Shown: positions 6,415 through 21,396 of the stretch, piece by piece | Layout of the letters: the number at the start of each line of letters is the position of its first letter | Numbering within the stretch: position 1 is the stretch's first letter | DNA from: Candidatus Heimdallarchaeota archaeon | Lineage (GTDB): Archaea > Asgardarchaeota > Heimdallarchaeia > Heimdallarchaeales > Kariarchaeaceae | Direction of reading: 5' to 3' | Assembly (NCBI GenBank): GCA_030149205.1 | Contig: JASBSB010000011.1 | Coordinates: forward strand, 1-26,574 | Length of the DNA: 26,574 nucleotides | Notes under the pieces: generated by a model | The model's input: only the letters and a program-made list of their open reading frames with translations | Databases searched by the model: none | Told to the model about the DNA's origin: nothing | Position numbers and translations under genes: made by a program

Positions 6415-9035
6415 GTTGCATCAAATTTAGGATTAAACCCTCCTAAAGGGGAATACTGGGTGAATTCGCTTTCCTTAACCAAGTATAACTCTACACCAGG
6501 GTATTTTAATTTATTATAGTTGGTGATTTGATTCAATAACTTGCTTGAAATTCCTATCATATATAAATTCAATAATTTCAATGAAGATTTTTTGGTTATA
6601 TCAAATTTATTGAGTAAATTATCGGGTAAAATTGCAAGACTTTTGTCGTAAGTCTCTTCAATTAATTTAAAATCTGAAAAGAGCTTACCCAAATTCGAGG
6701 TATCTAGTAAATCTGTTAACTCTGAAGTAATTTTCCTCATTTTTATTTTTTCATAAAATTTAGGTATCAATGACCTGAGTTTAATTTCATCCAAGTTATT
6801 TTCCTTTAATAAGAGCTCGTTTGTTATTTCTAAGGTGACTAAATCATATAAGTTCGCATATGGTTTGCCTTCATCATTCACAAGGTTGAATAAAGTTATA
6901 ACTCCTCTATCATTTCGATTATTTCTGTTACATCTTCCTGCAACTTGAATTATTGAATCTAATGGTGCCATATCTCTGTAAACTCTAGAAAAATCTAAAT
7001 CAATTCCTGCTTCAATCACCTGTGTTGTCACTAAAATCACTGGTTTGTTCTTGGCTAAAAGGTTTTCAACTTCCTGTATAGTGTTCTTTCGATCTATAGG
7101 TCTTACCCAGGTTGAGAGTAGAAAAGTTGAATAATTTTTGAATTCAGAATCAACAAAATCATAAACATCTCTGCAAGACTTTTTTGTATTTAAAACAATT
7201 AAAATTTGGTTGTTTTTATTCACCTCAATATTGTTTTTGAAGTATTCTATTAAATCTTCCATACCTATTTCACTGAGGTCTTCAAGGAAATTTATCTCAT
7301 ATCTATTGATTTGATCTAATATATCCCTTGGTAAATTTAATGTTGGTCTCACAATTGATTTCACTGAATTTACCAAGGGGCGAGGATTGGTGGCAGAACC
7401 AATAATAAAGTCAATATTCAGATATTCGATCATAAAATTAATTGTTTTTGATAATATTTTCCAATATTTTGGAGGCAAAGATTGAACCTCATCTAAAATA
7501 ATTATCGAACCAATTAATCTATGAAATCTTAAAATTGCCTTTTTCTTGCCTGAAAAAATTAGATTCAAGAAAGATACAAATGTTGTAACAATGAATTGGT
7601 TGTGCCATAATCTTGTTGAATAAGATGCTTTTCCAACAATTATTTCATCTACACTTTCAACAAAATTCTCTCCTTTAACAATAAATTGAGGTAGATCAGA
7701 GAAGCTATGATGGATAGTTAAAAGCTCCTTTTTGCCCAATTTATTTAGACTCAGGATTTCATCAACTACATTTCCAACCTGATCAGTTATAGAAATAAAG
7801 GGTAAAGCATAAATTATTCTTCGAAATTTTTTGGTTTGAATAGGATGTTTGTTTGCTAATCTGACAGCTAAATTTATCATGGCATATGTTTTTGCAGAAC
7901 CTGTTGGTGCTTCAATAATGTAGGCTGATGGTTTATCTGATAAATCATTAGAATCTAACACATTGAACAAAATATTTCTTAACCTGTTTAACTGACTAAG
8001 AGTTGTATTTCCGTTTGGTTTGAATTTTAAATTTATTGTTTTTTTAACAGTATCTAAAGGAATTTTTCCAGTGTACGACCAATCAAATTCATCGGAATGG
8101 GAATCTGTGTTTTGGATAAATGTTCTGGCATCCCACTCATCTAGGTCACATAGCATAGAATGAAGAGTTAGATAAAAAGGTAAAAATGATGATAAATTTT
8201 TTGCATTATTCCAATCATCCGTAATATCCTCTATTAAGTCTTCAAACTCATCTGATACTATTTCTTTCTTTATTGGTTTCAAATAATTATCCAAATTACT
8301 AACTTTATATCTGACTATTTCTCCAAGTTGATCTAATGATTTTTTAATAATGTCTTTTCGATCTCCAGTGAATTTTTCACTAAAATCACAAGAAATCAAA
8401 ATCAAATCGTCTATATATCCAATTTGTTTATTTTGTCCTGGAATTCCTATTTCAAACTTTTTGCAAAATACATGTGTCTTCATTAGTGATATTGTTGAAA
8501 GTGTATCTACCTTTGCCTCTTTTAAATATTCTAACAAATTATGTTTTATTAGAGGAGAATGATGGCTGGCAATGGAATAAGGGATAAGAATCTTGAATAA
8601 TGAGATAAAGTTATCTGTAAGGTCTCCTAACGAGTTCTTTATTTCATTTTTTTCAATAGCAAAATAATTTTCTAACAGCAAATATGAGAAAATAGAGCTA
8701 GTTTTTGTATGATAACTTAGTGGGTTTATTGTGGCTTTAACCTTATTTTGTCTTATTTTGTATTGAAACACTGGTGAAATTTTTCCAAAATCATGACAAA
8801 CCACTAAAATTTTCATAAGGTCTTCAACAATATATTCTGATATTTTTAATTTTGTTGAATCTGGGGCTTCTCCAAAACTTCTGAGAGAATCTTTTGCAAG
8901 TTCAAAAAACGGTAATCTAAATTTTAAATCAAATAATTTTTTTCTTAAGTTCGATAAATGATGTTCTAGTGGTTGCCCGGGTCTAGCTAATAACCGATTA
9001 TAAGATGAAAATTTTTCTTCAATTGATTTCGTCAT
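6411..9035 (-). CDS. cas3: Cas3 HD nuclease-helicase
   Basis: LEHHL, CHDFGK, ASHH and LCDLD (HD domain); APTGSAKT, LDEVQ, GSAT, TQVIEAGIDLDF and QVAGRCNR (helicase motifs). Confidence 0.97.
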   Translation of the reverse strand: MTKSIEEKFSSYNRLLARPGQPLEHHLSNLRKKLFDLKFRLPFFELAKDSLRSFGEAPDSTKLKISEYIVEDLMKILVVCHDFGKISPVFQYKIRQNKVKATINPLSYHTKTSSIFSYLLLENYFAIEKNEIKNSLGDLTDNFISLFKILIPYSIASHHSPLIKHNLLEYLKEAKVDTLSTISLMKTHVFCKKFEIGIPGQNKQIGYIDDLILISCDFSEKFTGDRKDIIKKSLDQLGEIVRYKVSNLDNYLKPIKKEIVSDEFEDLIEDITDDWNNAKNLSSFLPFYLTLHSMLCDLDEWDARTFIQNTDSHSDEFDWSYTGKIPLDTVKKTINLKFKPNGNTTLSQLNRLRNILFNVLDSNDLSDKPSAYIIEAPTGSAKTYAMINLAVRLANKHPIQTKKFRRIIYALPFISITDQVGNVVDEILSLNKLGKKELLTIHHSFSDLPQFIVKGENFVESVDEIIVGKASYSTRLWHNQFIVTTFVSFLNLIFSGKKKAILRFHRLIGSIIILDEVQSLPPKYWKILSKTINFMIEYLNIDFIIGSATNPRPLVNSVKSIVRPTLNLPRDILDQINRYEINFLEDLSEIGMEDLIEYFKNNIEVNKNNQILIVLNTKKSCRDVYDFVDSEFKNYSTFLLSTWVRPIDRKNTIQEVENLLAKNKPVILVTTQVIEAGIDLDFSRVYRDMAPLDSIIQVAGRCNRNNRNDRGVITLFNLVNDEGKPYANLYDLVTLEITNELLLKENNLDEIKLRSLIPKFYEKIKMRKITSELTDLLDTSNLGKLFSDFKLIEETYDKSLAILPDNLLNKFDITKKSSLKLLNLYMIGISSKLLNQITNYNKLKYPGVELYLVKESEFTQYSPLGGFNPKFDAT

Positions 9036-9045
9036 ACCTTGCTTC

Positions 9046-9900
9046 CTAAAGAAATGTAATTGTTTTATTTAACTTTTTAATTTCTACCCCTTTTTCTGAT
9101 TCTAGTTTAGCCTTAAATTCATCCTCTGGTCTGACCAAAAATACAGATTCAAGTCTTTTTGCTATGATATTCCATAATGACAATTTAGTCTTATCATCTG
9201 CTTTTTTCATTGCCATAGGTATATTCAACAAGGTTGGTGTGCTTAAGAGAGAAAGAGGTATTTCCTTCATAAATTCTGAGTCAATTGCAGAGTAAGGGAC
9301 AATTGTATTTACTTTATAAATTATATCTGTACTGATTTTTGTCCCCTCAAACTCTCCTACATATTCTACCCTCGCTAATAAGTTTGCATGACCTAAATAT
9401 GGTGGATAATAATACTTTTTATTTTCTAACCTATCCTTGAGCTTCGTATATATTTCTAAATTTTCGGTGTGAATATACAACTGATAACTTGCATCTTCAA
9501 TCAGATCGAGTTTTGTTGGGGCATTCATGCCTCTGCTATATTTAGCTCCTCTGTACCTACGTGCAAAATCCTTGGCATTTAATTCAATTAACTCTGCACC
9601 AAATGGGTCTTCAGGTATCAAAATTTTGGAATTTTGGATTGTGATGGTTTCCTTAACTCTAATATAATTAACTTTAAGAGAATTTCTCTTAATCGGATTT
9701 AAAATTTCCACGGCAATATTTAGTGAGCTTAACGGATTTTTTACATCCCAATATTGATTTCTAGGCTCTCCTAAAATCGCACCTAATAACCCAAGTACTG
9801 CGGTACGTGGTGGAAAAGGGTAACTCAAGTTTTCTCTTGTTGTTTCGGGGATTCTAAAATGAGCGAAATCTCCTTCTAACTTTACAACCAAAACCTTCAT
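9046..9900 (-). CDS. cas5: Cas5, type I-B (Cas5h)
   Basis: GDFAHFRIPET...SYPFPPRTAVLGLLGAILG; YYPPYLGHA. Confidence 0.95.
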   Translation of the reverse strand: MKVLVVKLEGDFAHFRIPETTRENLSYPFPPRTAVLGLLGAILGEPRNQYWDVKNPLSSLNIAVEILNPIKRNSLKVNYIRVKETITIQNSKILIPEDPFGAELIELNAKDFARRYRGAKYSRGMNAPTKLDLIEDASYQLYIHTENLEIYTKLKDRLENKKYYYPPYLGHANLLARVEYVGEFEGTKISTDIIYKVNTIVPYSAIDSEFMKEIPLSLLSTPTLLNIPMAMKKADDKTKLSLWNIIAKRLESVFLVRPEDEFKAKLESEKGVEIKKLNKTITFL

Positions 9901-9909
9901 ATGCTATCC

Positions 9910-10845
9910 TCATATATCTTCTAAAGCAAAATCACTTAAGAAATCTTTCAAGCTGTTACTTGATTCTTTTCCATCTGTAAATGTTAATCCTCTATCCTCT
10001 TTAATCTCGATGAAATCAATTTGATCTGAGAATTTTTTTATCCTTTCGAGAAATCCACTGATATTTACTCTAGCATCTTCTGATCCTTTTAAATTTAACT
10101 CATTTTCAAGAACAAACCCTTTATCTAAATCTCCTATTTGGAAATCATTTTCTTTTGAAGCTACAGAAAGTAGTAATCTTGGAAGATGGTTAGTTTTACT
10201 ACGAGTGTTAATTCTTTTGGTACCATTCCATAAGCCATCATAGACATATTTTAGGTCGTCCTCAGTAAATCCAACCTCTTTAGCATTATGTTCACAAGCA
10301 ATCCCATGAAACTTAATTAAAGAGTAATCAAGAACATGGAATTCTCCAATTGACCCCTGTCCCTTTCCTTCCTCGGAGGCAATAGTTGAAGAAATGGTAA
10401 AAGAATTGATATTTGGTTTGTTCATTGATCTTGCAATTGAAAATTGAACTGGGCCTGTTAAGGCGACATTAGCATCTTTAACAGTACCAACAACACCAAA
10501 AGACCTGACATCAATAAATTTTTCAGGCAATGATTTTCGGATAAGTTCACGAGTATCTCCTTTCACCACTCCTATTTCTAACTCTTGTTTAATTAATTCT
10601 TTCATGGAGAGGACATTTCCTTTGTTTTCTCCTTCATCAGATTTAACAACTCTTCGAATGAGCACCTTGTTGTTTTCAGTTTCCCTTGTAAGCCAATAAT
10701 CTCTTATTGTGCGTTTTAACCTTAGATCAGTGACTATATTGTAATCATTCTCATCCATTCTAGGTCTGTTTTCATCATCGGGATCTCCATTAGGATTAGA
10801 GTCCCGTACATCATAAATAAATACTATTTCTCTTCTTTGTTTCAT
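9910..10845 (-). CDS. cas7: Cas7, type I-B (Csh2)
   Basis: SNPNGDPDDENRPRMD, VTDLRLKRTIRDY, FIDVRSFG, TGPVQFS and RSKTNHLPRLLL. Confidence 0.96.
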   Translation of the reverse strand: MKQRREIVFIYDVRDSNPNGDPDDENRPRMDENDYNIVTDLRLKRTIRDYWLTRETENNKVLIRRVVKSDEGENKGNVLSMKELIKQELEIGVVKGDTRELIRKSLPEKFIDVRSFGVVGTVKDANVALTGPVQFSIARSMNKPNINSFTISSTIASEEGKGQGSIGEFHVLDYSLIKFHGIACEHNAKEVGFTEDDLKYVYDGLWNGTKRINTRSKTNHLPRLLLSVASKENDFQIGDLDKGFVLENELNLKGSEDARVNISGFLERIKKFSDQIDFIEIKEDRGLTFTDGKESSNSLKDFLSDFALEDI

Positions 10846-11354
10846 ATTTGTTCCTCCATATCTTCCGTTTCAGAAGGTTCATTTTCTTCTTCTTCAGATG
10901 GATTTAGTTGTGCCAATGAGCTATCAAATCCCATTTGGAATGAAATACCAAGATCATATTGATTCTCTTTAAACTCATTGATATCTTTTAATAAGTCAGA
11001 AATTCTGTTTCTAAGATCAGATTTCATAACGTACGTACTTTTTTCTTTAGAAGCAATTTTTTGTAATACTGAGTTACAATTGTTAATCATAATTTTGAGT
11101 TTCGTTTCATCTATTCGTCTAGTTAAGTTAGGAAGGTTCTTTATTAGACTAGATGTTTTAAGCATTTTTTTCTGAAGAAAAGAACTGATAGAATAATATC
11201 TTCCAACAAGATAGCTTATCTGTCTTTCTGGCTTATTATTGAAATATTCTGTCTTAAAGATTTCATCAAGAAATCTGTTATCCTCTATTAATTTCTGTTT
11301 GAAATTTTCTTTTTTATTGATTTTTTCTAGATTTTCCTCTGACATATTGTTCAC
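10842..11354 (-). CDS. cas11: Stand-alone Cas11b small subunit (equivalent to the Cas8b C-terminal domain); true start may be ATG 11345
   Basis: Helical 170-aa protein between cas8b and cas7. SYLVGRYYSISSFLQKK and ISFQMGF match the FLxG..L...Q and F..G motifs of the Csh1/TM1802 C-terminus. GTGA overlap with cas8b. Confidence 0.75.
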   Translation of the reverse strand: MNNMSEENLEKINKKENFKQKLIEDNRFLDEIFKTEYFNNKPERQISYLVGRYYSISSFLQKKMLKTSSLIKNLPNLTRRIDETKLKIMINNCNSVLQKIASKEKSTYVMKSDLRNRISDLLKDINEFKENQYDLGISFQMGFDSSLAQLNPSEEEENEPSETEDMEEQI

Positions 11355-12880
11355 TCCCTAAATAAATTTAACTGGCACATTAGTTCATATAAAACTAAAA
11401 ATGTGTTGAGCATTCTACGATATTCATACTTTTTGATGAGAGTTTGTTTTTTCAAACCACCGTTATAAACTAAAAACGGATCTTTTAGGTTTGAAATTGC
11501 ATTTTTTGAGAATTCCCTATTTGAGACCTTTTTACCTGTAAGTAATGAATTTCGAATTAGATCTGCTTCTTTTATTGAAAAAAGAGAATATAGATCTTTA
11601 AATTCAAATCTATACACATTTTTATTTAATAAAAATTCTTTCTGATTGAACTTATTTTCAATAGATTCTAGAACTTCTAAAAATTTTTGTAGTTTATTGA
11701 CATTTACAAAAGTTGTATCCATAAAGACAATTTTTGTATTGCTAACTCCTGTTCGCTCATTTGTATAAAATAAGTCTAAATACGAAATTCCTCTTTTCGC
11801 GAATTCTTTTAATAAGGTACGTTCATCAATTTTTGAGTTGGTAGTTATATCTTCCTTGTTTTTCTTAGTTGTTTTCACAATTTTATTTTTAGCAGACCTT
11901 ACTATTTTTTTATTAACTCTTTCTAAATTTTCCTTTAAATTTTCAGCTTCATTTCTTTTGGTTGTTGTTTGTGATTGAATGTTCTTTAATTGAATAATTC
12001 TCGAAATAATTTCATTTAATTTTTGCAGATCAAAGACTAAAGGAAGTAGGATGTGATTTACAAATAAATTATTTCTGGAGTTTATTGGCTTAATATAACT
12101 TGGGAACGACAATTCGTTAACCATCAGATTTAAACCTTGTTGAATATCATTTTGGCAGTCGTAACACAAATTGAGTTGATGTGTTTTTTTTGCGTCAAAT
12201 CCCATTACAAAATTGTTTAAATCAAGGGAAAAGAATTCAAAAACAGCTTTGTTAATTTTTGAAACAGGTATGAGGTTAACAAACTTTCCACAGGCATAGC
12301 AAATTCCATTTATTGAATCTTTATCCTTAGATACTTTCGCTGACGATAAGTATACTTTTATGAATTCATCAATTTCTCCAGGATACTTAAAACTTTCACC
12401 ATCATGCACTTTGAAAACTAATAGTGTTGGACATTTACTCTTATTTACTTTGTTTTTTTTCTTGTCAAAAAAATTATCCTTAATCTTTAGCTTTATTTCA
12501 TCTTCGACACTATTTTTATTTTGTTCTAGCCATTCGATTAGTTGAGGATAAATTACTAACTCATCCTTATTTTCACTTTCCAACACAGAAGCTGGGAATT
12601 TTGCAAAATTGATTATTCTTCCTGTTTTGTTTAGTTCATCAGGTTTTATGTTTAAAACAGGGGATAAGTTACTGCTATTTCCCCCTTGGATTCCCCTTAG
12701 GTAGGTAATTTCTTTATTTTCGCTATATTCCTCAATATTTACTTGAAAGGTATTTTTGTTTGGGTCGACTTCAATGACAAACAAATGATCTTTCTTGTAT
12801 TTACTTTGTTCTTTTATTAATGAAACTAAAATATCATCCGAATTGATTTCACCGATTTTTTTGACAAGTGATAATAACAA
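11351..12880 (-). CDS. cas8b: Cas8b large subunit (Csh1/TM1802-like) lacking the C-terminal Cas11 part
   Basis: First gene of the cas7/cas5 operon; CYACG and LCYDCQ zinc-site motifs, FFSLD, HILLPLV; TTG start with upstream GGGAG. Confidence 0.85.
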   Translation of the reverse strand: MLLSLVKKIGEINSDDILVSLIKEQSKYKKDHLFVIEVDPNKNTFQVNIEEYSENKEITYLRGIQGGNSSNLSPVLNIKPDELNKTGRIINFAKFPASVLESENKDELVIYPQLIEWLEQNKNSVEDEIKLKIKDNFFDKKKNKVNKSKCPTLLVFKVHDGESFKYPGEIDEFIKVYLSSAKVSKDKDSINGICYACGKFVNLIPVSKINKAVFEFFSLDLNNFVMGFDAKKTHQLNLCYDCQNDIQQGLNLMVNELSFPSYIKPINSRNNLFVNHILLPLVFDLQKLNEIISRIIQLKNIQSQTTTKRNEAENLKENLERVNKKIVRSAKNKIVKTTKKNKEDITTNSKIDERTLLKEFAKRGISYLDLFYTNERTGVSNTKIVFMDTTFVNVNKLQKFLEVLESIENKFNQKEFLLNKNVYRFEFKDLYSLFSIKEADLIRNSLLTGKKVSNREFSKNAISNLKDPFLVYNGGLKKQTLIKKYEYRRMLNTFLVLYELMCQLNLFRE

Positions 12881-12977
12881 CTTTCTACAATCTCCCGAGT
12901 TTCCCCTCAGAACTAATGTAAATATGAATTAATTCTAAATAAAGTTTGTTCTTTCAATATGGAAAACTGGTATAAAA

Positions 12978-12990
12978 GTTTATGATAAAG
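12978..12990. promoter_or_regulatory. Candidate operator GTTTAT-G-ATAAAG upstream of cas8b
   Basis: Differs from the palindrome at 15657-15669 by one arm base and the central base; lies about 100 bp upstream of the cas8b start. Confidence 0.35.
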
Positions 12991-13276
12991 ATAATATTAA
13001 AACAATATTTAATCTAGGTAACCAAATATCGACTTCTTACATAAGGTTGCGACTTAAGTTCCAAAATTTAATCAAATCTTTAGATTACATATGGAGAAAA
13101 TGTCAAACAAAATAATAAACTTAAAGCTCGCTTTTAGTATCTTAATTTAACAAAACTTTGTTCACAACTGTTTTTCTATTCTCCTTTAAAAAATATGATT
13201 TAGAAGATTTGAGGTTTCATACTTTAAACCCTGTTTTATTTCTTAACCTTCTTTAGTTCTGACTCCTATTGAAATT

Positions 13277-13474
13277 ATGGATGGTACAAAGCGAAGCTCA
13301 ATAGCAATTGGTGCAAAGGTGGCAATTGTTGAGAAGCATAATCAGAGGACTGGAGAGTTAACCTATGGTGAGGTCAAAGACATCCTGACCAACAAATCGT
13401 CACACCCCCATGGTATCAAGGTCAGGTTGTCAAATGGAAAAGTTGGAAGGGTTAAGCAGATTAACCCCCAGTAA
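13277..13474 (+). CDS. ywbE: YwbE (DUF2196) family protein
   Basis: MDG.KR..I..G..V.IV.K..QRTG.LT.G.VKDILT....HPHGIKVRL..G.VGRV signature. Confidence 0.93.
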   Translation: MDGTKRSSIAIGAKVAIVEKHNQRTGELTYGEVKDILTNKSSHPHGIKVRLSNGKVGRVKQINPQ

Positions 13475-13647
13475 TACCTTTTACAAGTAGTTTGTTTATA
13501 GTCAAAAGAAAAACAAACTTTAATGAATCAAGTTTAGCTCTACATCTGTATAATTCGTCCTAAGCCTTTATCAGCACAAAAAACAGGTATACAGCTGTTA
13601 CAAAGTTATCAAAAATTATTCTAGTAGAAACCCCAGAAAGGAAATTA

Positions 13648-14868
13648 CTATTCCTTTACCCACCTCTGGATCTCAGCCTCCAGGTTACTCAGATCTTTTC
13701 TTCCGAACACCTTGACAGATCTATCCACTAGGTAATCTCTGACCTCGTTCTCCAATGCACTTTTGTTATCCGAGAGACATACCAACCCAAAGTATGTCTT
13801 CCAGCCAGCAATCTGTGTGGAGCGGATCATGACCTCAAATATCTTTTTCTTCAGCTCAGATTTTCCACCTCTCTTTGAATCTGAGACTGTGGAGACAGAA
13901 ACCACATACACCCGGTTTTTAACCAAAAACACCATGTCTAGCTCAAATTCAGGATCTTTGCTAGAGATGTTGGTTTTGAAGTCATCAATCACTCCTAACC
14001 TTGTAAGGTTTGAAAGTGCATCTGCTACGCGACTCTCGAGCCAGAACCCATCAAACCATTCTACAAGCTTCTTAATCCTCCTGAACTGAAGCTGTTTGGT
14101 TAGATCTGCGAGTCTGACCTTTTGGTTATTTGGATGTATCAGTTGCTTTAGCTCAGGGATATCAGCAAATGAAATTTCAATTCCATGTAACTCGGTCTCA
14201 GGTTTAACTTTCCTGTTTTTTTTCTTGTAAGCCTTTCTCAACTGTTTAGATTTGAAATTGAGCCACCTCTTATCATTCTCTTGTTTGCTTAGCAACTTGA
14301 TTAATGCATCGACCACCTTTCTTTGCTCATTTTTCAAAGGGACAGTTGGATCAAACTTTGTGTCCTGATGAAGTGATATAACCTCAGAAACTGTGAATGG
14401 AAGATTGATCTCCTCTTCATGAGTTTCAAGGCTTGGTACCTTAGTGATGATGAGACTCCAGGGTTTTCCCCGTATGTAAGAGATGACAAAATCTGCGTTT
14501 ATTCTCTGTAGATAAAAGAGTGTTGCCATTAACATTGGCTTGGTACCACCGGTGGAATCAAAATGGACATAAGGTTTTTGTGGGTGATTAAATACCGGAT
14601 CAAGTGACATTTTGAGTTCTTTCAGAATCTCCCCTTGATCAAATGGTGGGACTTCAATTCCAAGGATCTGTTGTTCCTTTCCCCTCTGATCTCTCTTCTC
14701 CTGAAAATTTCTTTTCCATTGTAATATCCTTGAAAAGATCGGCTCATTAGCCTTGGTGTACAGAATAAAGACATGGGGGGTGTCAGAGAAGAGTTTGATA
14801 ACTGTGACAGGAACAATTGGATTGGATCCTAAAAGGGTGATGAGTACACTTGGTTTCTTAAGTGTCAA
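13648..14868 (-). CDS. CARF + DUF1887 (PD-(D/E)xK-like) nuclease, Card1/Can2-like
   Basis: N-terminal CARF motifs LITLLGSNP and FDSTGGTKPM; C-terminal FDGFWLE...ELDMVF....VYVVSVST...KKKIFE...RSTQIAG...GLVC. Confidence 0.8.
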   Translation of the reverse strand: MTLKKPSVLITLLGSNPIVPVTVIKLFSDTPHVFILYTKANEPIFSRILQWKRNFQEKRDQRGKEQQILGIEVPPFDQGEILKELKMSLDPVFNHPQKPYVHFDSTGGTKPMLMATLFYLQRINADFVISYIRGKPWSLIITKVPSLETHEEEINLPFTVSEVISLHQDTKFDPTVPLKNEQRKVVDALIKLLSKQENDKRWLNFKSKQLRKAYKKKNRKVKPETELHGIEISFADIPELKQLIHPNNQKVRLADLTKQLQFRRIKKLVEWFDGFWLESRVADALSNLTRLGVIDDFKTNISSKDPEFELDMVFLVKNRVYVVSVSTVSDSKRGGKSELKKKIFEVMIRSTQIAGWKTYFGLVCLSDNKSALENEVRDYLVDRSVKVFGRKDLSNLEAEIQRWVKE

Positions 14869-14961
14869 TTGTAAATGATTATTCGCTGTATGGTTATATA
14901 GTTGAGGACTTCTAGATAGTTATTTCAATATTCCTTAGATGAAACCTCTCAAATACCTGTG

Positions 14962-15621
14962 TTAATTTTCCATTAGAGCAACCAGAACCTTTCCTGTATC
15001 TGTCAGAGAGACGAGCCTTTCCTTTCCCTGATAGTCAGATTCAATCAGGTCCTGGTTCTCAAATTCTTTGATATATCTTGTCATTGATTGAACAGTTCTA
15101 AGCCCAGTTTCCTTTTTGAGTAGGGAGAGGGAAATGGGTCTGTTAATCTCTCCCAATGTTTTAATAATTTTCAGGCGGGTGTCTCTGAAATCTCTGGTAG
15201 ACACTCGGGGCATAGGTACCCAAATAAGCTCTCCTATACCATCGTCCTCACGAAGTTTTTTGAGATAAAAAACAGGACTTGCGGTCATATATCCAACGAG
15301 AAGAAGTGCTGAGGTCATTATTTTTGTCCCTCCAGTCATATTTAGTGTGATCTTCAGCTTGGGGTCACTCTGGTATTTTTTACGAACCTTCTTGATTCCT
15401 TCAATCATGTTAAGAAGGCAGTTCATAAGATCAAATTTATCTATAATATGATTGTAGACCTTAATACGTAGTGGGTCATTCTCATAAAACTTCTTTATGG
15501 ATGCCAGTTCTGGAGAGTCATCAGAATCAGTGAACAGATGGATTTCATCCATCGGAACATGCCTAAGGGCATTGAGCACCACATCTGGTGACTTCCCTAG
15601 ACTGGCAAATTGTACTCTCAT
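14962..15621 (-). CDS. csa3: Csa3-like CARF-wHTH transcriptional regulator
   Basis: CARF motifs FASLG and LNMTGGTKIM; C-terminal winged helix SLSLLKKETG...QSMTRYIKEFENQDLIE...GKERLVSLTDTG. Confidence 0.85.
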   Translation of the reverse strand: MRVQFASLGKSPDVVLNALRHVPMDEIHLFTDSDDSPELASIKKFYENDPLRIKVYNHIIDKFDLMNCLLNMIEGIKKVRKKYQSDPKLKITLNMTGGTKIMTSALLLVGYMTASPVFYLKKLREDDGIGELIWVPMPRVSTRDFRDTRLKIIKTLGEINRPISLSLLKKETGLRTVQSMTRYIKEFENQDLIESDYQGKERLVSLTDTGKVLVALMEN

Positions 15622-15642
15622 AAGTAAATAAATCCAGTAAGG

Positions 15643-15705
15643 TTATTTAATTTGTTGTTTATTATAAACTGATTTTGTTTAATGTCTGCATAATGTATTT
15701 AATAT
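15643..15705. promoter_or_regulatory. Divergent csa3/viperin promoter region with central palindrome GTTTAT-T-ATAAAC (15657-15669)
   Basis: TATA-like TTAAATAA (minus strand, 15650-15643) about 25 nt from csa3 ATG 15621; TTTAATAT (plus strand, 15698-15705) about 25 nt from viperin ATG 15726; a 6-bp inverted repeat lies between them. Confidence 0.5.
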
Positions 15706-15725
15706 ATTGCTGTCAGTTTATTGTT

Positions 15726-16649
15726 ATGAGTAACAGCTCAAACCAACCAGAAATCATTCCAAAACCCCCCGTCATTGAACTCATCCCTAAAAACATCCCT
15801 ATCATCGACTATAAACCAGAAATCAAACTTTCTCGAGATTTAATCTCAGTGAATTATCACATCATCAAAGCCTGTAATTACCGTTGCGTCTTCTGCTTTG
15901 CAAAATTTAATCAGGTGTCAAGAAACTATCTCTCCTTGGAAGATTCTAAGAGTATTATTCAAGAATTACATCTATTTGGGACTGAGAAGATCACTTTTGT
16001 TGGAGGTGAACCTACCCTGGTACCTCATCTTCCAGAACTTGTTAGCTATGCCAAATCACTAGGATTGACTACAATGATAGTAACAAACGGAACCAAACTA
16101 TCTGAGGAATATTTGAAAAGGTTTAACGGGAATCTAGACTGGGTTGGTCTGAGTATCGACAGTGGAAAGGAAGACATAAACAGAGAGTTAGGACGAGGAA
16201 ACGGTTCTCATGTGTCGCAAACATTGAAAAATGTAAAACTTTTAAGGGAGTTTGGTATTAAAATTAAAATAAATTCTGTGATTAACCTGTTAAATTGGCA
16301 GGAGGATATGTCTTGGTTAATTGAAAGCATTAACCCATTCAGATGGAAGGTCTTTAAGCTGTTACCTATCGAAGGAGAAAATGATGAATCAAAGCATCTG
16401 GAAATCTCTGATGAACAGTATTTTTCGTTTATTCAAAACCACAGGCATCTGAATCCCGTTGTTGAGACCAACGATGCGATGACAGACAGCTATGTGATGA
16501 TTGATCCAAATGGCTGCTTTTTCAATAACTCAAATGGGAGGTTGAATCATGGGCCACCGATTTTAGCAGTTGGTGTCGAAAAAGCCTTTAGCCTTTCAAA
16601 CTTTCAAAAAGAAAAATTTGAGGCAAGAGGAGGTGTGTATAAATGGTAG
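15726..16649 (+). CDS. pVip: Prokaryotic viperin (RSAD2-like radical SAM, ddhNTP synthase); likely start ATG 15726 rather than TTG 15675
   Basis: SVNYHIIKACNYRCVFCF (CX3CX2C), KITFVGGEP, TNG, DWVGLSIDS, KINSV, RWKVFK.L..EGEN and SYVMIDPNG.F are viperin-type motifs. Confidence 0.92.
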   Translation: MSNSSNQPEIIPKPPVIELIPKNIPIIDYKPEIKLSRDLISVNYHIIKACNYRCVFCFAKFNQVSRNYLSLEDSKSIIQELHLFGTEKITFVGGEPTLVPHLPELVSYAKSLGLTTMIVTNGTKLSEEYLKRFNGNLDWVGLSIDSGKEDINRELGRGNGSHVSQTLKNVKLLREFGIKIKINSVINLLNWQEDMSWLIESINPFRWKVFKLLPIEGENDESKHLEISDEQYFSFIQNHRHLNPVVETNDAMTDSYVMIDPNGCFFNNSNGRLNHGPPILAVGVEKAFSLSNFQKEKFEARGGVYKW

Positions 16650-17365
16650 ATGTCAAACTTTCGAAAATTGTTATCAAGTATGGTGGAAGTCAGTTGTATG
16701 ATGAATCAGGAACAATTCTGCCAGAAAGATTTAAACTTCTTGCAGAACTTATTATAAGGCTTTGTGACACAGGCATCTCTACCTATGTGGTTTTAGGCGG
16801 GGGGAAACCAACGAGGGATATTGTTCAAAAATTCTCCCGATCCCTCGTAAATTCTAAGTTTGGACTTAATGCAACACAACTTGACCATATTTCCATTGAG
16901 GTGACAAGGATTCATTCTCAGTTGTTAAGATTCATGTTATCAGGTAAAATGGAAACAAGGTTTGTAACTAGGTATGAGGAATTATTTGATGAGGTTCTTC
17001 CCTCTACAGTTACAGTGGCTGGAGGTCTCTTTCCTGGTCAATCAACTAATGGAACAGCTGCGTTGGTGTCAGAAGCAGTAGAAGCTGATCTGTTAGTCAA
17101 TTTTTTTGGATTTGACAATATTCACTCAGAAGACCCAACCACAAATAGGAAAGGTAAAACTCTGACATCACTGTCATATGAAGACCTCAACAAATTAATT
17201 AGTGGGTTTAAGCAAGAGCCAGGCCATTATGAGCTGTTTGATCTCTTGGCATTGAACTACGTAAAGAGGTCAAAGATTCCGGTTTTATTTCTTAATGGGA
17301 ATAATCCTCTTAAGCTTAAAGAATATCTCTCTGGAACGAAATTGGGGACGTTGGTTAAAGCATGA
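16643..17365 (+). CDS. Archaeal-type uridylate kinase (PyrH, amino-acid-kinase fold) homolog, diverged
   Basis: KIVIKYGGS, VVLGGGK.TR, VAGGLFPGQST...AAL..E...ADLL, EDP and final GTLV; overlaps viperin by 7 nt. Confidence 0.88.
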   Translation: MVDVKLSKIVIKYGGSQLYDESGTILPERFKLLAELIIRLCDTGISTYVVLGGGKPTRDIVQKFSRSLVNSKFGLNATQLDHISIEVTRIHSQLLRFMLSGKMETRFVTRYEELFDEVLPSTVTVAGGLFPGQSTNGTAALVSEAVEADLLVNFFGFDNIHSEDPTTNRKGKTLTSLSYEDLNKLISGFKQEPGHYELFDLLALNYVKRSKIPVLFLNGNNPLKLKEYLSGTKLGTLVKA

Positions 17366-17547
17366 ATGAAAATAAACTACCAACCTGTTCATCTGTATAT
17401 GTTCAGAATATAGCTCATTTAAATGACAGCATTCTTTTTTATTTAACAATTTTTCACATTGGAACAAGAAATCTTTTGAACTGTAAGTTTAAATTGGTCT
17501 TAGGATTTATTTTTCCTGAGTATTTGGTAAGGAGGGTGAAAAAATGA
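17362..17547 (+). CDS. 61-aa ORF bridging the kinase and helicase genes; may not be a true protein gene
   Basis: ATGA start/stop overlaps at both ends (17362-17365 and 17544-17547); no recognisable motif. Confidence 0.3.
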   Translation: MNENKLPTCSSVYVQNIAHLNDSILFYLTIFHIGTRNLLNCKFKLVLGFIFPEYLVRRVKK

Positions 17548-20354
17548 GTTCCAACCTATATTACAGAAATCTACCAGAAGTACCTAGTGACAAAGCTGCA
17601 CGAGCAATTAAAATAAGTACAGATAAAACTCTTACCCCTTTTTTTAATTATTATCTTACCTATAGAAAGCATGAGACTGAGAAAGTCTTTGAGGTAACCT
17701 TGAAGCTTATTGAATGGAATGAATTTTTTGTAAAATATGATCTAAACAATCGAAAAAATCAATTAGAATCAAAACTCAAAACTTACGGTAAAGTACCTCA
17801 AGAATTGAGAGAAATTAGAAAATTCATCGAGTATAGAAACACCAATAATTTGGGATTATACATGATTGATATAACTGATGAAACAGTCGATGATGAAAAA
17901 GCATTAAGGGAAATAACTGGAAGAGATACAATTCTTTCTCTAAGTCGGTCTGTGAGGACAGAGAGCAAACTAAACTATGAACATATCTCAAGAAGATATG
18001 ATGTCATAGTCATGAAGATTTTTTATAATAAGAAGGGAGGTAACGAAGGATCATCAGTCAGAATTCCCAGAGAATCAATCAAGGTTTACTATAAACCTAA
18101 TGTCAAGGTTCTAAACTTACTTATTAATGCACTGGAAAAACTTCAAAATACTCCTGCAGTACACAACCGACCTCTTTTAAAATTATTCGAAAACAGGTCA
18201 AGGGTACGTTTTGAAATCCCTGTGAAAGCAACAATTAGAGATAATGAATGGTTATTTCTAACGGATCAAAGTAGATCTGGGAATGATTTACAACGTGAAT
18301 TTGTAAAAATGGCTATTGAAACCCCTGATTTTGCTATTCTGGACGGACCACCTGGATCAGGGAAGACTACAACTATATTAGAATTAATTTATCAACTTGT
18401 GATTCGGGGTCAGAAGATACTTATGGTAGGATCAACTCATGCGGCGGTGGATAATGTAATAGAGAAATTAATGGACCCAGACTTCTCATATAGAGAAGCA
18501 CTAGATGACTTAGTTTTACCTATTCGGATTGGAAATCCTGAATATCATTCTATATCTGATTTTGCTGCAGATTATACAGAAGGTGAGTTATGGAAGACAA
18601 AAAGGGCTGAACAACTGGAATGGTTGGCTTCAATTCAGAATAAGACAGAATCACAGGAAGAGTTTGAACAAATGCTACTAAACAAAAAGGACTCTAGTAT
18701 CTTGAAATTTTCTGTTTTACGTTCCACATCACTTACCTGTGCAACAACTGCTGGGATAACCAATCATTCAATGATCAGAGCGAATTCTAATGGAACTTCA
18801 ACCAACAAACCCTTTTTTGATTTTTTGATCCTAGATGAGGCCAGTAAAACCACATTTCAAGAATTTTTAATTCCTGCCCTTTACGCAAAAAAATTTATTA
18901 TAATTGGTGACGTTTTACAATTATCTCCATTTGTTGATGAGGATGGCTTATCATCAAATATAGGTAGCGTATTAGATTTTTCTGAGGAACAGAGGTATTG
19001 GGCTACTGTCGTCAATAATTTTTTCCAGATCAATGCTTCACCAAAACGAGCGTTAATACTTTATGACCACAAAGAATCTAATTTAATTTATGATGCTTTC
19101 AGGGGTTCTAAGTACAATATAGCCCCTCTTACCACCAAGAATCAAGATTATGTGTTTGCGGATATAATTTTCGCTACAAAATCTGATTTAAAAAAATATC
19201 ACGATCTACTTCCTTCAACACTAACACTTTTTTTGGACGCAAGAACATCTGAAGGTAAAAGCTTTTTTGTTCGAGATTCAAAATTCATCCCAATCACGAA
19301 CAACTTAAGTCATTTTCCCATCCTATATCAATATCGAATAAACTTTGTTCAACAGAAAAACAAAGAGAGGAAAAAGTCGTTAACATCAATACTTCATATA
19401 AGATCCCAAGATGATACATGGGCTGATGCTCTAAGTTGGAGGTTAATTCGGTTGAACGAAATTGAAAAAAACCCAACAAACTCTAATGAGTATCAGAACA
19501 GGCTATTAAACAGCATCATAAATCTTTTGCCGAAGGATGACAAAATTAGAAAAAAAATAGAAAACGAGATTGGAGACATGTATGAAATTGCCCTTCCTTC
19601 AATTCTTAAGCTCTTACAGGAAGGTTTAGGTGAGACCAAATTTAGACCAAAATCTGATATAACAACGACACTATCTTCAGGGTTACCAGAAGAAGCATTA
19701 AAAGCAAGGTATGTTCGATTAACCCATCAAAATCGCATGCATCCAGACATAAGTAAATTTGCCCGAGAAACATTCTATGAGAATCAAGCATTGCATGATT
19801 CAAATCGCCTAAATAGAGGTCTCCCCCTTTATCCTCTATATAACAATAAACGGATGGTATGGATTGATGTTGTTAACAAAACCCAAAGTGATCCAACTGT
19901 AAATAAACAAGAGATCAATCGTGTCTTCAAGGAACTTATTCAGTTATTAAAATACTTACAGAGATTTTCTGACCAGAATTGGAGTATTGCAGTATTGACG
20001 TTTTACAAGCGACAACGTCGTGAATTACTTAATGAATTTGATAAGAATCCAGAATTTAAGAAATTCAAATCCAAAAACTTCTACCCCAAAAATCAAAAGA
20101 ATATTCAAATTAAGATTGATGTAGTTGACTCATTCCAAGGACAGGAGGCGGATTTTGTGTTTCTATCTATGGTTCGAACGTTTGGGATTGGATTTCTTGA
20201 CAATCCGAATCGGTTAAATGTTGCTCTAACCAGGGCTAAATATCAACTCGTAATACTGGGTGATAATAAGCATTTCAAGAAACAAACCAGATCAGCTCAT
20301 CTTAAAAAGCTGGCTGAAATACCATCAGAAAGAGGAATAACTTATGATAATTAG
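17544..20354 (+). CDS. Upf1/DNA2-NAM7-like superfamily 1B helicase (936 aa)
   Basis: DGPPGSGKTT, STHAAVDNV, LDEASK, IGDVLQLSP, RMHPDI, VLTFYKRQ, VDSFQGQEAD and NRLNVALTRAK; SD-like GGAGGGTGA upstream. Confidence 0.95.
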   Translation: MSSNLYYRNLPEVPSDKAARAIKISTDKTLTPFFNYYLTYRKHETEKVFEVTLKLIEWNEFFVKYDLNNRKNQLESKLKTYGKVPQELREIRKFIEYRNTNNLGLYMIDITDETVDDEKALREITGRDTILSLSRSVRTESKLNYEHISRRYDVIVMKIFYNKKGGNEGSSVRIPRESIKVYYKPNVKVLNLLINALEKLQNTPAVHNRPLLKLFENRSRVRFEIPVKATIRDNEWLFLTDQSRSGNDLQREFVKMAIETPDFAILDGPPGSGKTTTILELIYQLVIRGQKILMVGSTHAAVDNVIEKLMDPDFSYREALDDLVLPIRIGNPEYHSISDFAADYTEGELWKTKRAEQLEWLASIQNKTESQEEFEQMLLNKKDSSILKFSVLRSTSLTCATTAGITNHSMIRANSNGTSTNKPFFDFLILDEASKTTFQEFLIPALYAKKFIIIGDVLQLSPFVDEDGLSSNIGSVLDFSEEQRYWATVVNNFFQINASPKRALILYDHKESNLIYDAFRGSKYNIAPLTTKNQDYVFADIIFATKSDLKKYHDLLPSTLTLFLDARTSEGKSFFVRDSKFIPITNNLSHFPILYQYRINFVQQKNKERKKSLTSILHIRSQDDTWADALSWRLIRLNEIEKNPTNSNEYQNRLLNSIINLLPKDDKIRKKIENEIGDMYEIALPSILKLLQEGLGETKFRPKSDITTTLSSGLPEEALKARYVRLTHQNRMHPDISKFARETFYENQALHDSNRLNRGLPLYPLYNNKRMVWIDVVNKTQSDPTVNKQEINRVFKELIQLLKYLQRFSDQNWSIAVLTFYKRQRRELLNEFDKNPEFKKFKSKNFYPKNQKNIQIKIDVVDSFQGQEADFVFLSMVRTFGIGFLDNPNRLNVALTRAKYQLVILGDNKHFKKQTRSAHLKKLAEIPSERGITYDN

Positions 20355-21396
20355 CTTTACAACATCCTTTACTACATATAAAATTGCAGCTCTTGCTGAA
20401 ATTGGTGTGGAAGGTGAGGATAAAGGGTATATGGTCTATCTCAAAGCCATAAAAGAGGCTCAAGGATCAGATCCGATGAAATACCTAAAAGAAAACCTAT
20501 TGAAAAAATTTCCAAAAACAACATCATATAATGTAATAACAGAGCTGCAAGCATTACAGTTAGTTGATGAATATGGAAAAATAACAAGTGTTGGAGAAGA
20601 TGCACTTCAAACTGAAACAATTTACTTCCCAAGCAGGGGTATCTTTAATTTCGAATTTGTTAAAAATACTCCCATGAAATCTTCTGTTATTGATATTACA
20701 GAAAACCGTTCCAAATTAATTAAAGAGGTTAATGTTTCGGACGAAATTGATATAGACCAAGGGCAAAGATTCAAGTTATTGGATGGGAGAAATATAGTAG
20801 TATTAAGTTTAGAAGAAAAGGGACAAAAGGTAAAAGAAAATTCTACCAGATCAAAAATTGTTTGTGAATTTGTTCATGATGGTGGATGGAGCCTTTGGGT
20901 CAGAACGAACAGCAATGACAAGATAAAAGTAGAATTATCAGATGAATTTATACAGCTTAACATCCATGAACGGATATTCGAATATTACAAGAAAAACCCC
21001 TATGACGACGACTCGATCCTGGTAAAGTTTGATGAGCTTAATGAAAAAGAGCTTCAAACCTTTAAAGGAAACAGAGTAGTCAAAGATTTAAAAATTCCAG
21101 AGTATAACCTTAGTGTAAATTTACAAATTGAGGATATAAAATTGTTTCCAGCCAACTCTCAAGAAGCAATTAAGTGGGCACTAAAACTCTTCACATCAAA
21201 TTACATGGGCTCATATTTAACACAGTCAGAGTGTGTGAATCTTTGGCAAGAAATGGTAAAAGAAATTCCTGAGTTTCAGGTTTATCCAGACCTGTATAAT
21301 ATTAGCTTTGAGACAATGTTAAAAGAAATTTTAGATACCTCAAAAAGCAAATTTTTGGTGGCACCTATAGATTTTAGATTGGAGGGTCTGGTGTGA
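20344..21396 (+). CDS. Hypothetical protein (350 aa), possible N-terminal winged helix
   Basis: Overlaps both neighbours (11 nt and 4 nt); ELQALQLVDEYGKITSVGEDAL resembles a wHTH wing motif. Confidence 0.7.
   Translation: MIISFTTSFTTYKIAALAEIGVEGEDKGYMVYLKAIKEAQGSDPMKYLKENLLKKFPKTTSYNVITELQALQLVDEYGKITSVGEDALQTETIYFPSRGIFNFEFVKNTPMKSSVIDITENRSKLIKEVNVSDEIDIDQGQRFKLLDGRNIVVLSLEEKGQKVKENSTRSKIVCEFVHDGGWSLWVRTNSNDKIKVELSDEFIQLNIHERIFEYYKKNPYDDDSILVKFDELNEKELQTFKGNRVVKDLKIPEYNLSVNLQIEDIKLFPANSQEAIKWALKLFTSNYMGSYLTQSECVNLWQEMVKEIPEFQVYPDLYNISFETMLKEILDTSKSKFLVAPIDFRLEGLV

What the first reader, a model, noticed from the sequence alone, without database searches (positions are those of the whole stretch)
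12978..15705. Shared palindrome suggests Csa3 co-regulates the viperin operon and the cas operon
Seen: csa3 and viperin are head-to-head, about 104 bp apart, with GTTTAT-T-ATAAAC between their two TATA-like boxes. A near copy, GTTTAT-G-ATAAAG, lies in the cas8b upstream region. Both are roughly 30-35 bp upstream of a plausible TATA box. Established: Csa3 proteins are dimeric, cA4-binding regulators of cas genes that recognise palindromes. Inference: a second-messenger-controlled regulon linking CRISPR to viperin, which I do not know to be described. Caveat: the motif is short, AT-rich and was noticed post hoc.
Basis: partly seen in the sequence, partly recalled or inferred. Interest (0 to 1): 0.72.

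Follow-up and report, generated by a model that had tools for sequence, protein, structure and literature searches.

The report
Operator of a viperin-controlling Csa3-like regulator
In a Heimdall-group Asgard archaeon, the palindrome between a CRISPR-type signal sensor gene (Csa3-like) and the antiviral viperin operon is a conserved control site, most likely the sensor's own docking site, but its look-alike in front of the neighbouring CRISPR genes is found in this genome only and may be chance.

Summary
GTTTATTATAAAC (15657-15669) lies in the 104-bp gap between a Csa3-like CARF+wHTH gene and viperin. GTTTATGATAAAG (12978-12990) lies 98 bp upstream of cas8b.

The first site is real regulatory DNA. 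The regulator|viperin divergent pair recurs in 11 loci across three families of the class. A palindrome sits 34-45 nt upstream of the regulator's start in most of them. It is GTTTAYNRTAAAC in close relatives, including a symmetric T·A to C·G change, and has other clade-specific sequences in distant ones. The controlled operon is viperin, a PyrH-like kinase, an MkoA-like helicase, an unknown gene and a PLD nuclease. The genome also holds a type III locus whose Cas10 has a GGDD motif, so a cyclic-oligoadenylate source is plausible.

The cas link is weak. The cas8b copy is a single site with a different promoter geometry. It is absent upstream of cas8b orthologues and at cas loci of other regulator-bearing genomes. 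Its chance probability is 0.01-0.10. One exact copy lies 262 bp upstream of a second I-B locus, which is suggestive but ambiguous.

No paper in the held library links Csa3/CARF to viperin. This scan had already found the pVip/csa3 operator on other DNA (e1-905832).

The parts
15657..15669 (.). Operator O1: perfect palindrome GTTTAT-T-ATAAAC. It ends 6 nt from the csa3 TATA-like box and 28 nt from the viperin TATA-like box.
   Evidence: It is conserved at the same place in L036, L038 and L020/G008.
15677..15689 (.). Second (half-)site O2, GTTTAATGTCTGC. It is 7 nt from O1, and only its GTTTAA/TTAAAC half is conserved. It ends 8 nt before the viperin TATA-like box.
   Evidence: Alignment of five orthologous intergenic regions. 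Distant loci carry two full palindromes 20 bp apart.
15698..15707 (+). Viperin TATA-like box TTTAATATAT, 18 nt before ATG 15726, which suggests a leaderless or near-leaderless mRNA (inference).
   Evidence: It lies in the 12-nt block TATTTAATATAT (15696-15707), of which 11 positions are invariant in all five orthologous regions.
15643..15650 (-). csa3 TATA-like box (TTAAATAA on the minus strand), 21 nt before the csa3 ATG at 15621.
   Evidence: the TTAAA core is conserved.
14962..15621 (-). [quoted passage not shown]
   Evidence: Pfam Cas_APE2256 36.9 bits. PADLOC CARF3 86.9 bits. AF2 model pLDDT 89.8, with Csa3 structures 6WXQ/2WTE/6W11 as best PDB matches at TM 0.63-0.72. Homodimer model 0.61 against controls 0.00.
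13648..14868 (-). Card1/Can2-type CARF + PD-(D/E)xK nuclease, 406 aa, directly downstream of csa3 and probably co-transcribed (inference).
   Evidence: PADLOC CARF4--CARF_PDDEXK 172.5 bits. Present beside the regulator in L035 and L038 too.
15726..16649 (+). Prokaryotic viperin (radical SAM, CNYRCVFC cluster motif).
   Evidence: NF038283 303 bits against a cut-off of 180. PADLOC pVip 296 bits.
16643..17365 (+). PyrH-type (amino-acid-kinase fold) UMP-kinase-like gene, overlapping the viperin stop.
   Evidence: PF00696 62 bits and TIGR02076 135 bits, below that model's cut-off.
17544..20354 (+). SF1 helicase, MkoA-like (Mokosh).
   Evidence: AAA_11/AAA_12. PADLOC MkoA 272.6 bits. Conserved after viperin in L035, L036, L038 and G015.
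20344..21396 (+). 350-aa protein without a family match, conserved between the helicase and the PLD gene.
   Evidence: no match. A gene of 345-423 aa sits in the same place in L035, L036, L038 and G015.
21393..22910 (+). PLD-family nuclease (DrmC-like), last gene of the conserved cassette.
   Evidence: PLDc_2 68.7 bits. PADLOC DrmC 59.5 bits.
12978..12990 (.). Near copy GTTTATGATAAAG (CTTTATCATAAAC in the cas8b direction), 98 nt upstream of the cas8b TTG. A candidate extra target, not established.
   Evidence: It is not conserved upstream of cas8b orthologues. Chance probability 0.01-0.10.
12936..12943 (-). Likely cas8b TATA box (TTTATTTA), followed by a GGGGAAAC..GGAG leader shared with orthologous cas8b promoters.
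5590..12880 (-). Type I-B interference operon: cas8b, a 170-aa gene, cas7, cas5, cas3, cas6. No cas1, cas2 or cas4 on the contig.
   Evidence: PADLOC Cas8b 78.7 bits. One orthologue (P0010) carries PF09484.
18084..18096 (.). Exact match GTTTACTATAAAC inside the helicase gene. It is probably chance, because no exact match to the pattern was found outside the intergenic operator in the four orthologous loci.

Best explanation
The palindrome at 15657-15669, together with the half-site at 15677-15689, is the operator of the adjacent Csa3-like CARF+wHTH regulator. A dimer (or two dimers) bound there sits against the BRE/TATA elements of both divergent promoters. It thereby controls its own csa3-card1 transcript and the viperin, PyrH-like kinase, MkoA-like helicase, unknown gene, PLD operon. 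My preferred mode, by inference, is repression at rest. Release would come when the CARF domain binds a cyclic oligoadenylate made by the genome's type III CRISPR-Cas system, so that potentially self-toxic effectors are made only on infection. The conserved regulon is this cassette. The look-alike upstream of cas8b is not part of the conserved design. It is either chance or a recent recruitment specific to this genome.

Shown here: gene identities, fold, conserved adjacency, the conserved and symmetrically varying palindrome, and the presence of a Cas10 with GGDD. Inferred: who binds the site, the ligand, and the sign of regulation.
For: Fold: the best PDB matches of a confident model are Csa3 structures over both domains. 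The CARF motif N-x-T-G-G-T-K is present, with T96, G97, G98 and T99 invariant across homologues. A homodimer model scores 0.61 against a best control of 0.00; the mark was reached by 20 of 30 solved homo-pairs and 1 of 23 single chains. Runs agreed in at least 100% of contacts and partner pLDDT was at least 86. Like complexes are solved, so this shows likeness only.

Adjacency: the regulator is divergent from viperin in the window, L035, L036/L037, L038 and G008 (59-68% identity). The same holds in G004, G007, G012, G015, G054 and G056 (28-31% identity, families f1, f2 and f6).

Operator: GTTTATTATAAAC (L036), GTTTATTGTAAAC (L038) and GTTTACAGTAAAC (G008) occur at the same distance from the regulator's start. 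TTGTATTATACAA occurs in G012 and G015. Two TTTTATNATAAAA sites 20 bp apart occur in G054, and imperfect pairs at the same spacing occur in G004 and G056. Of six exact GTTTAYNRTAAAC sites in the genome, only this one is outside long ORFs.

Signal source: a type III locus with five RAMP genes and a Cas10 carrying GGDD.

Precedent: Csa3b binds two palindromic sites in a promoter and represses (PMC5389559). Csa3 binds cA4, and cA4 rearranges its wHTH domains (PMC8844856). The CAPPa palindrome lies 12 bp upstream of BRE/TATA (PMC8699464).
Against: No binding, ligand or expression data exist, and no RNA run holds this DNA. The protein scores far below the curated Csa3 model (22.3 against 60.2 bits). 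The closest homologue's locus (L035, 68% identity) lacks the 13-mer and instead carries a wider inverted repeat, my reading of the sequence printed. The palindrome is itself TATA-like and AT-rich. Orthologous loci are related, so conservation partly reflects shared descent. Published Csa3 DNA binding in vitro was independent of cA4 or nonspecific (PMC8844856, PMC8699464), so the ligand switch is uncertain even for the founding members. The sign of regulation cannot be read from position alone. Against the 'cas copy is incidental' part: two of the few motif matches in this genome lie near type I-B operons.
Confidence: 0.6

Rival explanations
1. One reading: the same Csa3-like dimer also binds the near copy upstream of cas8b, and perhaps the exact copy beside the second I-B locus on contig C4. 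One second-messenger-controlled regulon would then switch the viperin cassette and type I-B interference genes together.
For: The cas8b copy differs only at one outermost base and keeps one perfect ATAAAC half. It lies 34 nt upstream of the probable cas8b TATA box, similar to the 28 nt from O1 to the viperin TATA box. Only 13 matches with at most one mismatch lie in about 400 kb of non-ORF DNA, which gives P about 0.01 for that upstream region. Three of the 11 GTTTAYNRTAAAS sites of the genome lie in this 26.6-kb contig. An exact GTTTATTGTAAAC, identical to the L038 operator, lies 262 bp upstream of cas6 of a complete second I-B locus. By my rough arithmetic, two matches with at most one mismatch within 300 bp of three cas operon starts has P about 1e-4 to 1e-3 before allowing for post hoc choices. 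Csa3a and Csa3b regulate type I cas genes in Sulfolobales (PMC4333418, PMC5389559).
Against: It is a single site without the second half-site, and its distance to the TATA box differs from the 6-8 nt seen at the two conserved promoters. There is no motif upstream of cas8b orthologues (42-45% identity; two of them are same-genus genomes in which the regulator was not found). There is none at the cas loci of G008. In G015 and G012 the only exact clade-specific operator copy outside the csa3-viperin gap lies inside a coding ORF far from any cas7 gene. No cas genes lie in the flank held for four close orthologous cassettes. The C4 copy lies inside the longest reading of a divergent 550-aa ORF and far from the cas6 promoter, and it is absent from the same-genus orthologous region. 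P rises to 0.10 if any intergenic DNA of the window counts. The motif was noticed post hoc.
Confidence: 0.27
2. The palindrome is a core-promoter feature or the site of another factor, not of the Csa3-like protein. For example, it could be a symmetric TATA/BRE-like element of the bidirectional promoter bound by TBP/TFB, or the target of one of the other wHTH proteins of the genome.
For: TTTATTATAAA resembles an archaeal TATA box in both directions (consensus recalled from general knowledge). Perfect palindromes arise in 8-20% of shuffled AT-rich intergenic regions. Earlier scan notes report other CARF-wHTH regulators in the genome. The bacterial-type promoter scan is irrelevant in an archaeon.
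Against: Separate TATA-like boxes at the right distance from both start codons are conserved beside it. The symmetric T·A to C·G change in G008 keeps dyad symmetry but weakens any TATA character. The palindrome sequence changes by clade along with the regulator's recognition helix (QSMTRY, QLISYH and QNASYH in alignment A1), while the viperin TATA block stays the same. The site follows the regulator gene in 11 loci. The second viperin of this genome (contig C5), which has no regulator beside it, has no such site.
Confidence: 0.1
3. Both sites are chance AT-rich sequence without function.
For: The motif is short, AT-rich (non-ORF DNA is 29% GC) and not enriched genome-wide against a reversed control.
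Against: Positional conservation across 7 or more loci and three families.
Confidence: 0.03

Closest known systems
Csa3b and its two palindromic operator sites in the type I-A interference promoter of Sulfolobus islandicus (PMC5389559)
   Same: A CARF+wHTH factor, two neighbouring palindromic sites inside a promoter region, and a defence operon held under transcriptional control.
   Different: Here the conserved target is a viperin, kinase, Mokosh-like helicase/PLD cassette and not cas genes. The protein is only about 17% identical to solved Csa3 and fails the curated Csa3 model. No Cascade co-repressor is implied. The organism is a mesophile-type Asgard archaeon, not a crenarchaeon.
Csa3a and the CAPPa palindrome of Sulfolobales; Csa3-cA4 structures 6W11 and 6WXQ (PMC8699464, PMC8844856, PMC4333418)
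   Same: The fold (best structural matches), a dimer, a palindrome just upstream of BRE/TATA, and proposed cross-talk from type III cOA signalling to other defence genes.
   Different: CAPPa is an 18-bp motif in front of adaptation genes and CRISPR leaders. Here a 13-bp palindrome plus a half-site sits in front of viperin. The ligand of this protein is unknown.
Prokaryotic and Asgard viperins, often with a neighbouring nucleotide kinase (10.1101/2023.09.13.557418; 10.1101/2023.09.13.557551)
   Same: The viperin passes the curated prokaryotic viperin model and is followed by a kinase.
   Different: On term searches of their main texts, those studies do not mention any regulator, CARF or Csa3 neighbour, nor a helicase-PLD extension of the viperin operon.
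Interferon-induced RSAD2 (viperin) in vertebrates
   Same: By function only: an infection signal switches on viperin transcription.
   Different: The signal, receptor and transcription machinery are unrelated. This is an analogy, not homology of the control circuit.

Membership tests
Csa3 family (CARF + wHTH transcription factors) | N-terminal CARF (Rossmann-like) domain with the cOA-binding motif | tested here: met
   PF09651 36.9 bits against a cut-off of 24.8. N-x-T-G-G-T-K is present, with T96, G97, G98 and T99 invariant (the motif definition is recalled from the CARF literature). Fold matches to CARF proteins.
Csa3 family (CARF + wHTH transcription factors) | [quoted passage not shown] | tested here: met
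   The model has three helices and a beta-hairpin wing at 147-217. 6WXQ, 2WTE and 6W11 are the best full-length matches, with TM 0.63-0.72 over about 230 columns.
Csa3 family (CARF + wHTH transcription factors) | Scores above the curated family model (TIGR01884 cas_HTH) | tested here: not met
   22.3 bits against a cut-off of 60.2. The PADLOC Csa3 model gives 24.5 bits, while CARF3--CARF gives 86.9 bits. It works like a Csa3 but belongs to a distinct subfamily.
Csa3 family (CARF + wHTH transcription factors) | Homodimer | tested here: inconclusive
   The complex model scores 0.61 against a best control of 0.00. The mark was reached by 20 of 30 solved homo-pairs and 1 of 23 single chains. Like complexes are solved, so the pass may reflect memory.
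Csa3 family (CARF + wHTH transcription factors) | Binds cA4 (or another cOA) | not testable with these tools
   Only the conserved CARF motif and a Cas10 with GGDD in the genome.
Csa3 family (CARF + wHTH transcription factors) | Encoded in a cas locus and regulates cas genes | tested here: not met
   It lies 2 kb from a I-B operon in this window. No cas gene lies in the flank held for four close orthologous loci (up to 10 kb in three; a 3.9-kb contig for G008). The conserved neighbour is viperin.
Prokaryotic viperin (pVip) | Passes the curated viperin model and carries the radical-SAM CxxxCxxC motif | tested here: met
   NF038283 303.4 bits against 180. CNYRCVFC is read from the sequence.
Type I-B CRISPR-Cas | cas8b, cas7, cas5, cas3 and cas6 present | tested here: met
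   The orthologue P0010 carries PF09484. A CRISPR array lies at 1-515. Adaptation genes are not on this contig.
Card1/Can2 (CARF + PD-(D/E)xK nuclease) | Full-length match to CARF_PDDEXK models | tested here: met
   PDLC01883 172.5 bits over residues 7-406. A weak Can2 sequence match, 7BDV.
Mokosh (MkoA helicase with PLD nuclease) | MkoA-type SF1 helicase together with a PLD nuclease partner | tested here: inconclusive
   MkoA 272.6 bits, but covering only part of the model. The PLD gene matches DrmC models, not Mko models. An extra 350-aa gene lies between them.

The most novel reading that the evidence does not exclude
One cyclic-oligoadenylate-sensing Csa3-like factor forms a regulon in this Asgard archaeon that joins three arms of immunity. 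Type III CRISPR sensing would switch on viperin and a Mokosh-like helicase/PLD module. Through the copies at 12978 and at C4:11720, it would also tune two type I-B CRISPR loci. [quoted passage not shown]
Probability: 0.25. Interest if true: 0.78.

Novelty: new variant of a known kind. Interest (0 to 1): 0.55.

Why it matters
Viperin is the textbook interferon-induced antiviral gene of animals, and Asgard viperins are argued to be its ancestors. How prokaryotic viperins are switched on is not described in the papers I could search. A conserved CARF+wHTH regulator with a conserved operator in front of viperin gives a concrete, testable circuit. In that circuit a CRISPR type III alarm molecule induces a chain-terminator-producing enzyme and a helicase-nuclease module. 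It would also extend Csa3-type factors from regulators of cas genes to regulators of non-CRISPR defence. The specific claim of joint control with the type I-B operon would add coordinated innate and adaptive control, but it rests on this one genome.

Tried and rejected
1. Conservation of the cas8b copy. The upstream regions of cas8b orthologues L042, L043 and L045 contain no match even with two mismatches. Only the TATA/leader part aligns.

2. Operator copies at cas loci of other regulator-bearing genomes. There is none upstream of the G008 cas8b-like gene. One 1-mismatch match on a G008 cas contig lies inside a 562-aa ORF. In G015 the only other exact copy lies inside a membrane-protein ORF.

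3. TTTTATNATAAAA in family f6 genomes is too common to be informative.

4. Other exact matches in G008 (C20, C39, C547) are all inside ORFs.

5. RNA evidence: no RNA holder is listed for this DNA. Laying contigs of three metagenomes gave only short fragments. One fragment covers 15410-15694 with 3 differing letters, and nothing was usable for the cas8b promoter.

6. Rfam: no family matches in the window.

7. The sigma-70 promoter scan is not meaningful for an archaeon.

8. The second viperin of the genome (contig C5) has no regulator and no motif.

9. The start codon of the 550-aa ORF that holds the C4 copy could not be settled. Homologues align only from residue 70 onward, and it has no Pfam family.

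10. Sequence-only search of the PDB did not retrieve Csa3 itself; only the fold search did.
Full report
**What is there.**
- The window is the whole 26,574-bp contig C11 of a 3.31-Mb, 35% GC genome. The closest homologue of the regulator is annotated as coming from a Candidatus Heimdallarchaeota MAG.
- On the minus strand lies a type I-B interference operon: cas8b 11351-12880, a 170-aa gene, cas7, cas5, cas3 and cas6.
- A DUF2196 gene lies at 13277-13474 on the plus strand.
- On the minus strand follow a Card1/Can2-type CARF-nuclease (13648-14868; PADLOC CARF_PDDEXK 172.5 bits) and a 219-aa CARF+wHTH protein (14962-15621).
- Divergent from the latter is an operon of viperin (15726-16649; NF038283 303 bits against a cut-off of 180), a PyrH-like kinase, an MkoA-like SF1 helicase, a 350-aa unknown and a PLD nuclease.

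**Observation.**
- GTTTATTATAAAC is at 15657-15669 in the 104-bp gap. GTTTATGATAAAG is at 12978-12990, 98 nt upstream of the cas8b TTG.
- GTTTATNATAAAS occurs three times in the genome, twice here. The perfect palindrome is unique.

**The regulator.**
- An AlphaFold model built on nine homologues has mean pLDDT 89.8.
- Its best PDB matches are full-length Csa3 structures (6WXQ, 2WTE, 6W11; TM 0.63-0.72), ahead of other CARF proteins that match only the N-terminal domain.
- The CARF motif N-x-T-G-G-T-K is present, with T96, G97, G98 and T99 invariant.
- A homodimer model scores 0.61 against a best control of 0.00. The mark was reached by 20 of 30 solved homo-pairs and 1 of 23 single chains. Runs agreed in at least 100% of contacts and partner pLDDT was at least 86. 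Csa3 dimers are solved, so this shows likeness only.
- It fails the curated Csa3 model (22.3 against 60.2 bits). I therefore call it Csa3-like, a separate subfamily.

**Conserved gene pair.**
- Four close homologues (59-68% identity) all sit divergent from a viperin that is followed by the same helicase, unknown gene and PLD. A kinase is present in two of them. The Card1-like gene sits on the other side in L035 and L038.
- Among 60 relatives, homologues of 28-31% identity are again divergent neighbours of viperin in G004, G007, G012, G015, G054 and G056, from three families.
- G015 again shows viperin-helicase-unknown-PLD.
The adjacency is the most conserved feature of this regulator.

**Conserved operator.**
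- In the orthologous gaps, the palindrome is at the same place, 34-37 nt before the regulator's start. It reads GTTTATTATAAAC (L036), GTTTATTGTAAAC (L038) and GTTTACAGTAAAC (G008). The last is a symmetric T·A to C·G change that keeps the dyad.
- The alignment shows four conserved blocks: the viperin TATA block, a half-site WWTAAAC, the palindrome 7 nt further on, and the csa3 TATA-like TTAAA.
- In window coordinates the half-site is GTTTAATGTCTGC at 15677-15689.
- Distant loci have clade-specific palindromes at the equivalent place. G012 and G015 have TTGTATTATACAA. G054 has two TTTTATNATAAAA sites 20 bp apart. G004 and G056 have imperfect pairs at the same spacing.
- The regulator's recognition helix differs between these clades.
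- L035 lacks the 13-mer and has a wider inverted repeat instead; this is my reading of the sequence printed.
- A single perfect palindrome is not rare in such AT-rich DNA (8-20% of shuffles). The argument rests on position and recurrence, and related loci are not independent.

**Signal source.** Contig C8 carries a type III locus: cas6, a 496-aa Cas10-like protein with palm2 and GGDD, and five RAMP genes. A cyclic-oligoadenylate source for the two CARF proteins is therefore plausible, although none lies in the window.

**Mechanism (inference).**
- O1 ends 6 nt from the csa3 TATA box and O2 ends 8 nt from the viperin TATA box, so both abut the BRE position. Both genes look leaderless.
- I favour repression at rest and release by cOA. 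Three points support this. cA4 rearranges the wHTH domains of Csa3 (PMC8844856). Csa3b represses through two palindromic sites (PMC5389559). The effectors could be self-toxic.
- Activation, as for Csa3a at CAPPa 12 bp upstream of BRE (PMC8699464), remains possible. I put the split at roughly 55:35.

**The cas link.** Points in favour:
- The cas8b copy has one perfect half-site and a one-base change in the other.
- Only 13 matches with at most one mismatch lie in about 400 kb of non-ORF DNA. That gives P about 0.01 for this 396-bp region, 0.05 for about 2 kb of nearby promoters and 0.10 for all intergenic DNA of the window.
- Three of the genome's 11 relaxed matches lie on this contig.
- An exact GTTTATTGTAAAC lies at C4:11720. 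This is 262 bp upstream of cas6 of a complete second I-B locus that has a CRISPR array of more than 30 repeats.

Points against:
- The cas8b copy has no second half-site and a different spacing to its TATA box.
- cas8b orthologues (42-45% identity) lack it. Two of them are from same-genus genomes in which the regulator was not found.
- G008, G012 and G015 show no operator copy at cas promoters.
- No cas genes lie in the flank held for four close orthologous cassettes.
- The C4 copy lies within the longest reading of a divergent 550-aa ORF. It is far from the cas6 promoter and is absent from the same-genus region.
- I rate joint control of cas at about one in four.

**Known or new.**
- In the held library, one paper contains both 'viperin' and 'Csa3', and there Csa3 appears only in its reference list.
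- On term searches of their main texts, the two Asgard/viperin evolution studies name no regulator, CARF or helicase-PLD neighbour.
- This scan had already reported a palindrome at a pVip/csa3 divergent promoter in another genome and noted its recurrence in Heimdallarchaeota (e1-905832). My independent checks agree with that report.

**Verdict.** The operator reading is well supported. The cas co-regulation is not established.

Noticed in passing
window 1-515: A CRISPR array runs off the contig start (37-nt repeat, period about 75, roughly 5 repeats in two runs). It lies 5 kb from cas6, with unrelated genes between. The I-B operon on this contig has no cas1, cas2 or cas4.
   Followed up: partly
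G000:C4:1-11458 and 11720-11732 (locus L079): A second, complete type I-B locus (cas6-cas8b-cas7-cas5-cas3-cas4-cas1-cas2 plus an array of more than 30 repeats). An exact GTTTATTGTAAAC lies 262 bp upstream of cas6, inside the 5' end of a divergent 550-aa ORF with no family. That ORF has weak homologues in same-genus G001 and G002; the G002 one lies beside the same cas operon.
   Followed up: partly
G000:C8:12526-19812 (locus L049 4526-11812): A type III CRISPR-Cas operon with an unusually short Cas10-like protein (496 aa: palm2 domain, GGDD, weak mCpol match), five RAMP genes and cas6. An LRR protein gene lies next to it.
   Followed up: partly
window 18084-18096: An exact GTTTACTATAAAC lies inside the MkoA-like helicase gene of the regulated operon. 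No exact match to the pattern was found at that place in the four orthologous loci. Together with the other two sites it makes three of the genome's 11 relaxed matches on one 26.6-kb contig.
   Followed up: partly
window 17544-22910 and loci L035, L036, L038, L087: Viperin is consistently followed by an MkoA-like SF1 helicase, an unknown 345-423-aa protein and a PLD nuclease. This is a fixed viperin plus Mokosh-like cassette. In L036 and L038 a 37-56-codon ORF replaces the kinase.
   Followed up: partly
G000:C5:723-1583 (locus L078): A second viperin gene in the same genome, without a Csa3-like neighbour and without the palindrome.
   Followed up: partly
G000:C12:66416-67975 (locus L050 8416-9975): Another CARF-domain protein (519-aa ORF, PF09651 28.9 bits) elsewhere in the genome. 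It was not characterised.
   Followed up: no
locus L035 9930-9960: The closest homologue's locus has lost the 13-bp palindrome but carries a perfect 9-bp inverted repeat with a 9-nt spacer (GATATTAAG ... CTTAATATC) at the same place. This suggests the operator can be remodelled.
   Followed up: no
window 12881-13276: An unusually long (396-bp) gap between cas8b and a DUF2196 gene. Only the last 110 bp or so look like the cas8b promoter and leader, and the rest is unexplained.
   Followed up: no
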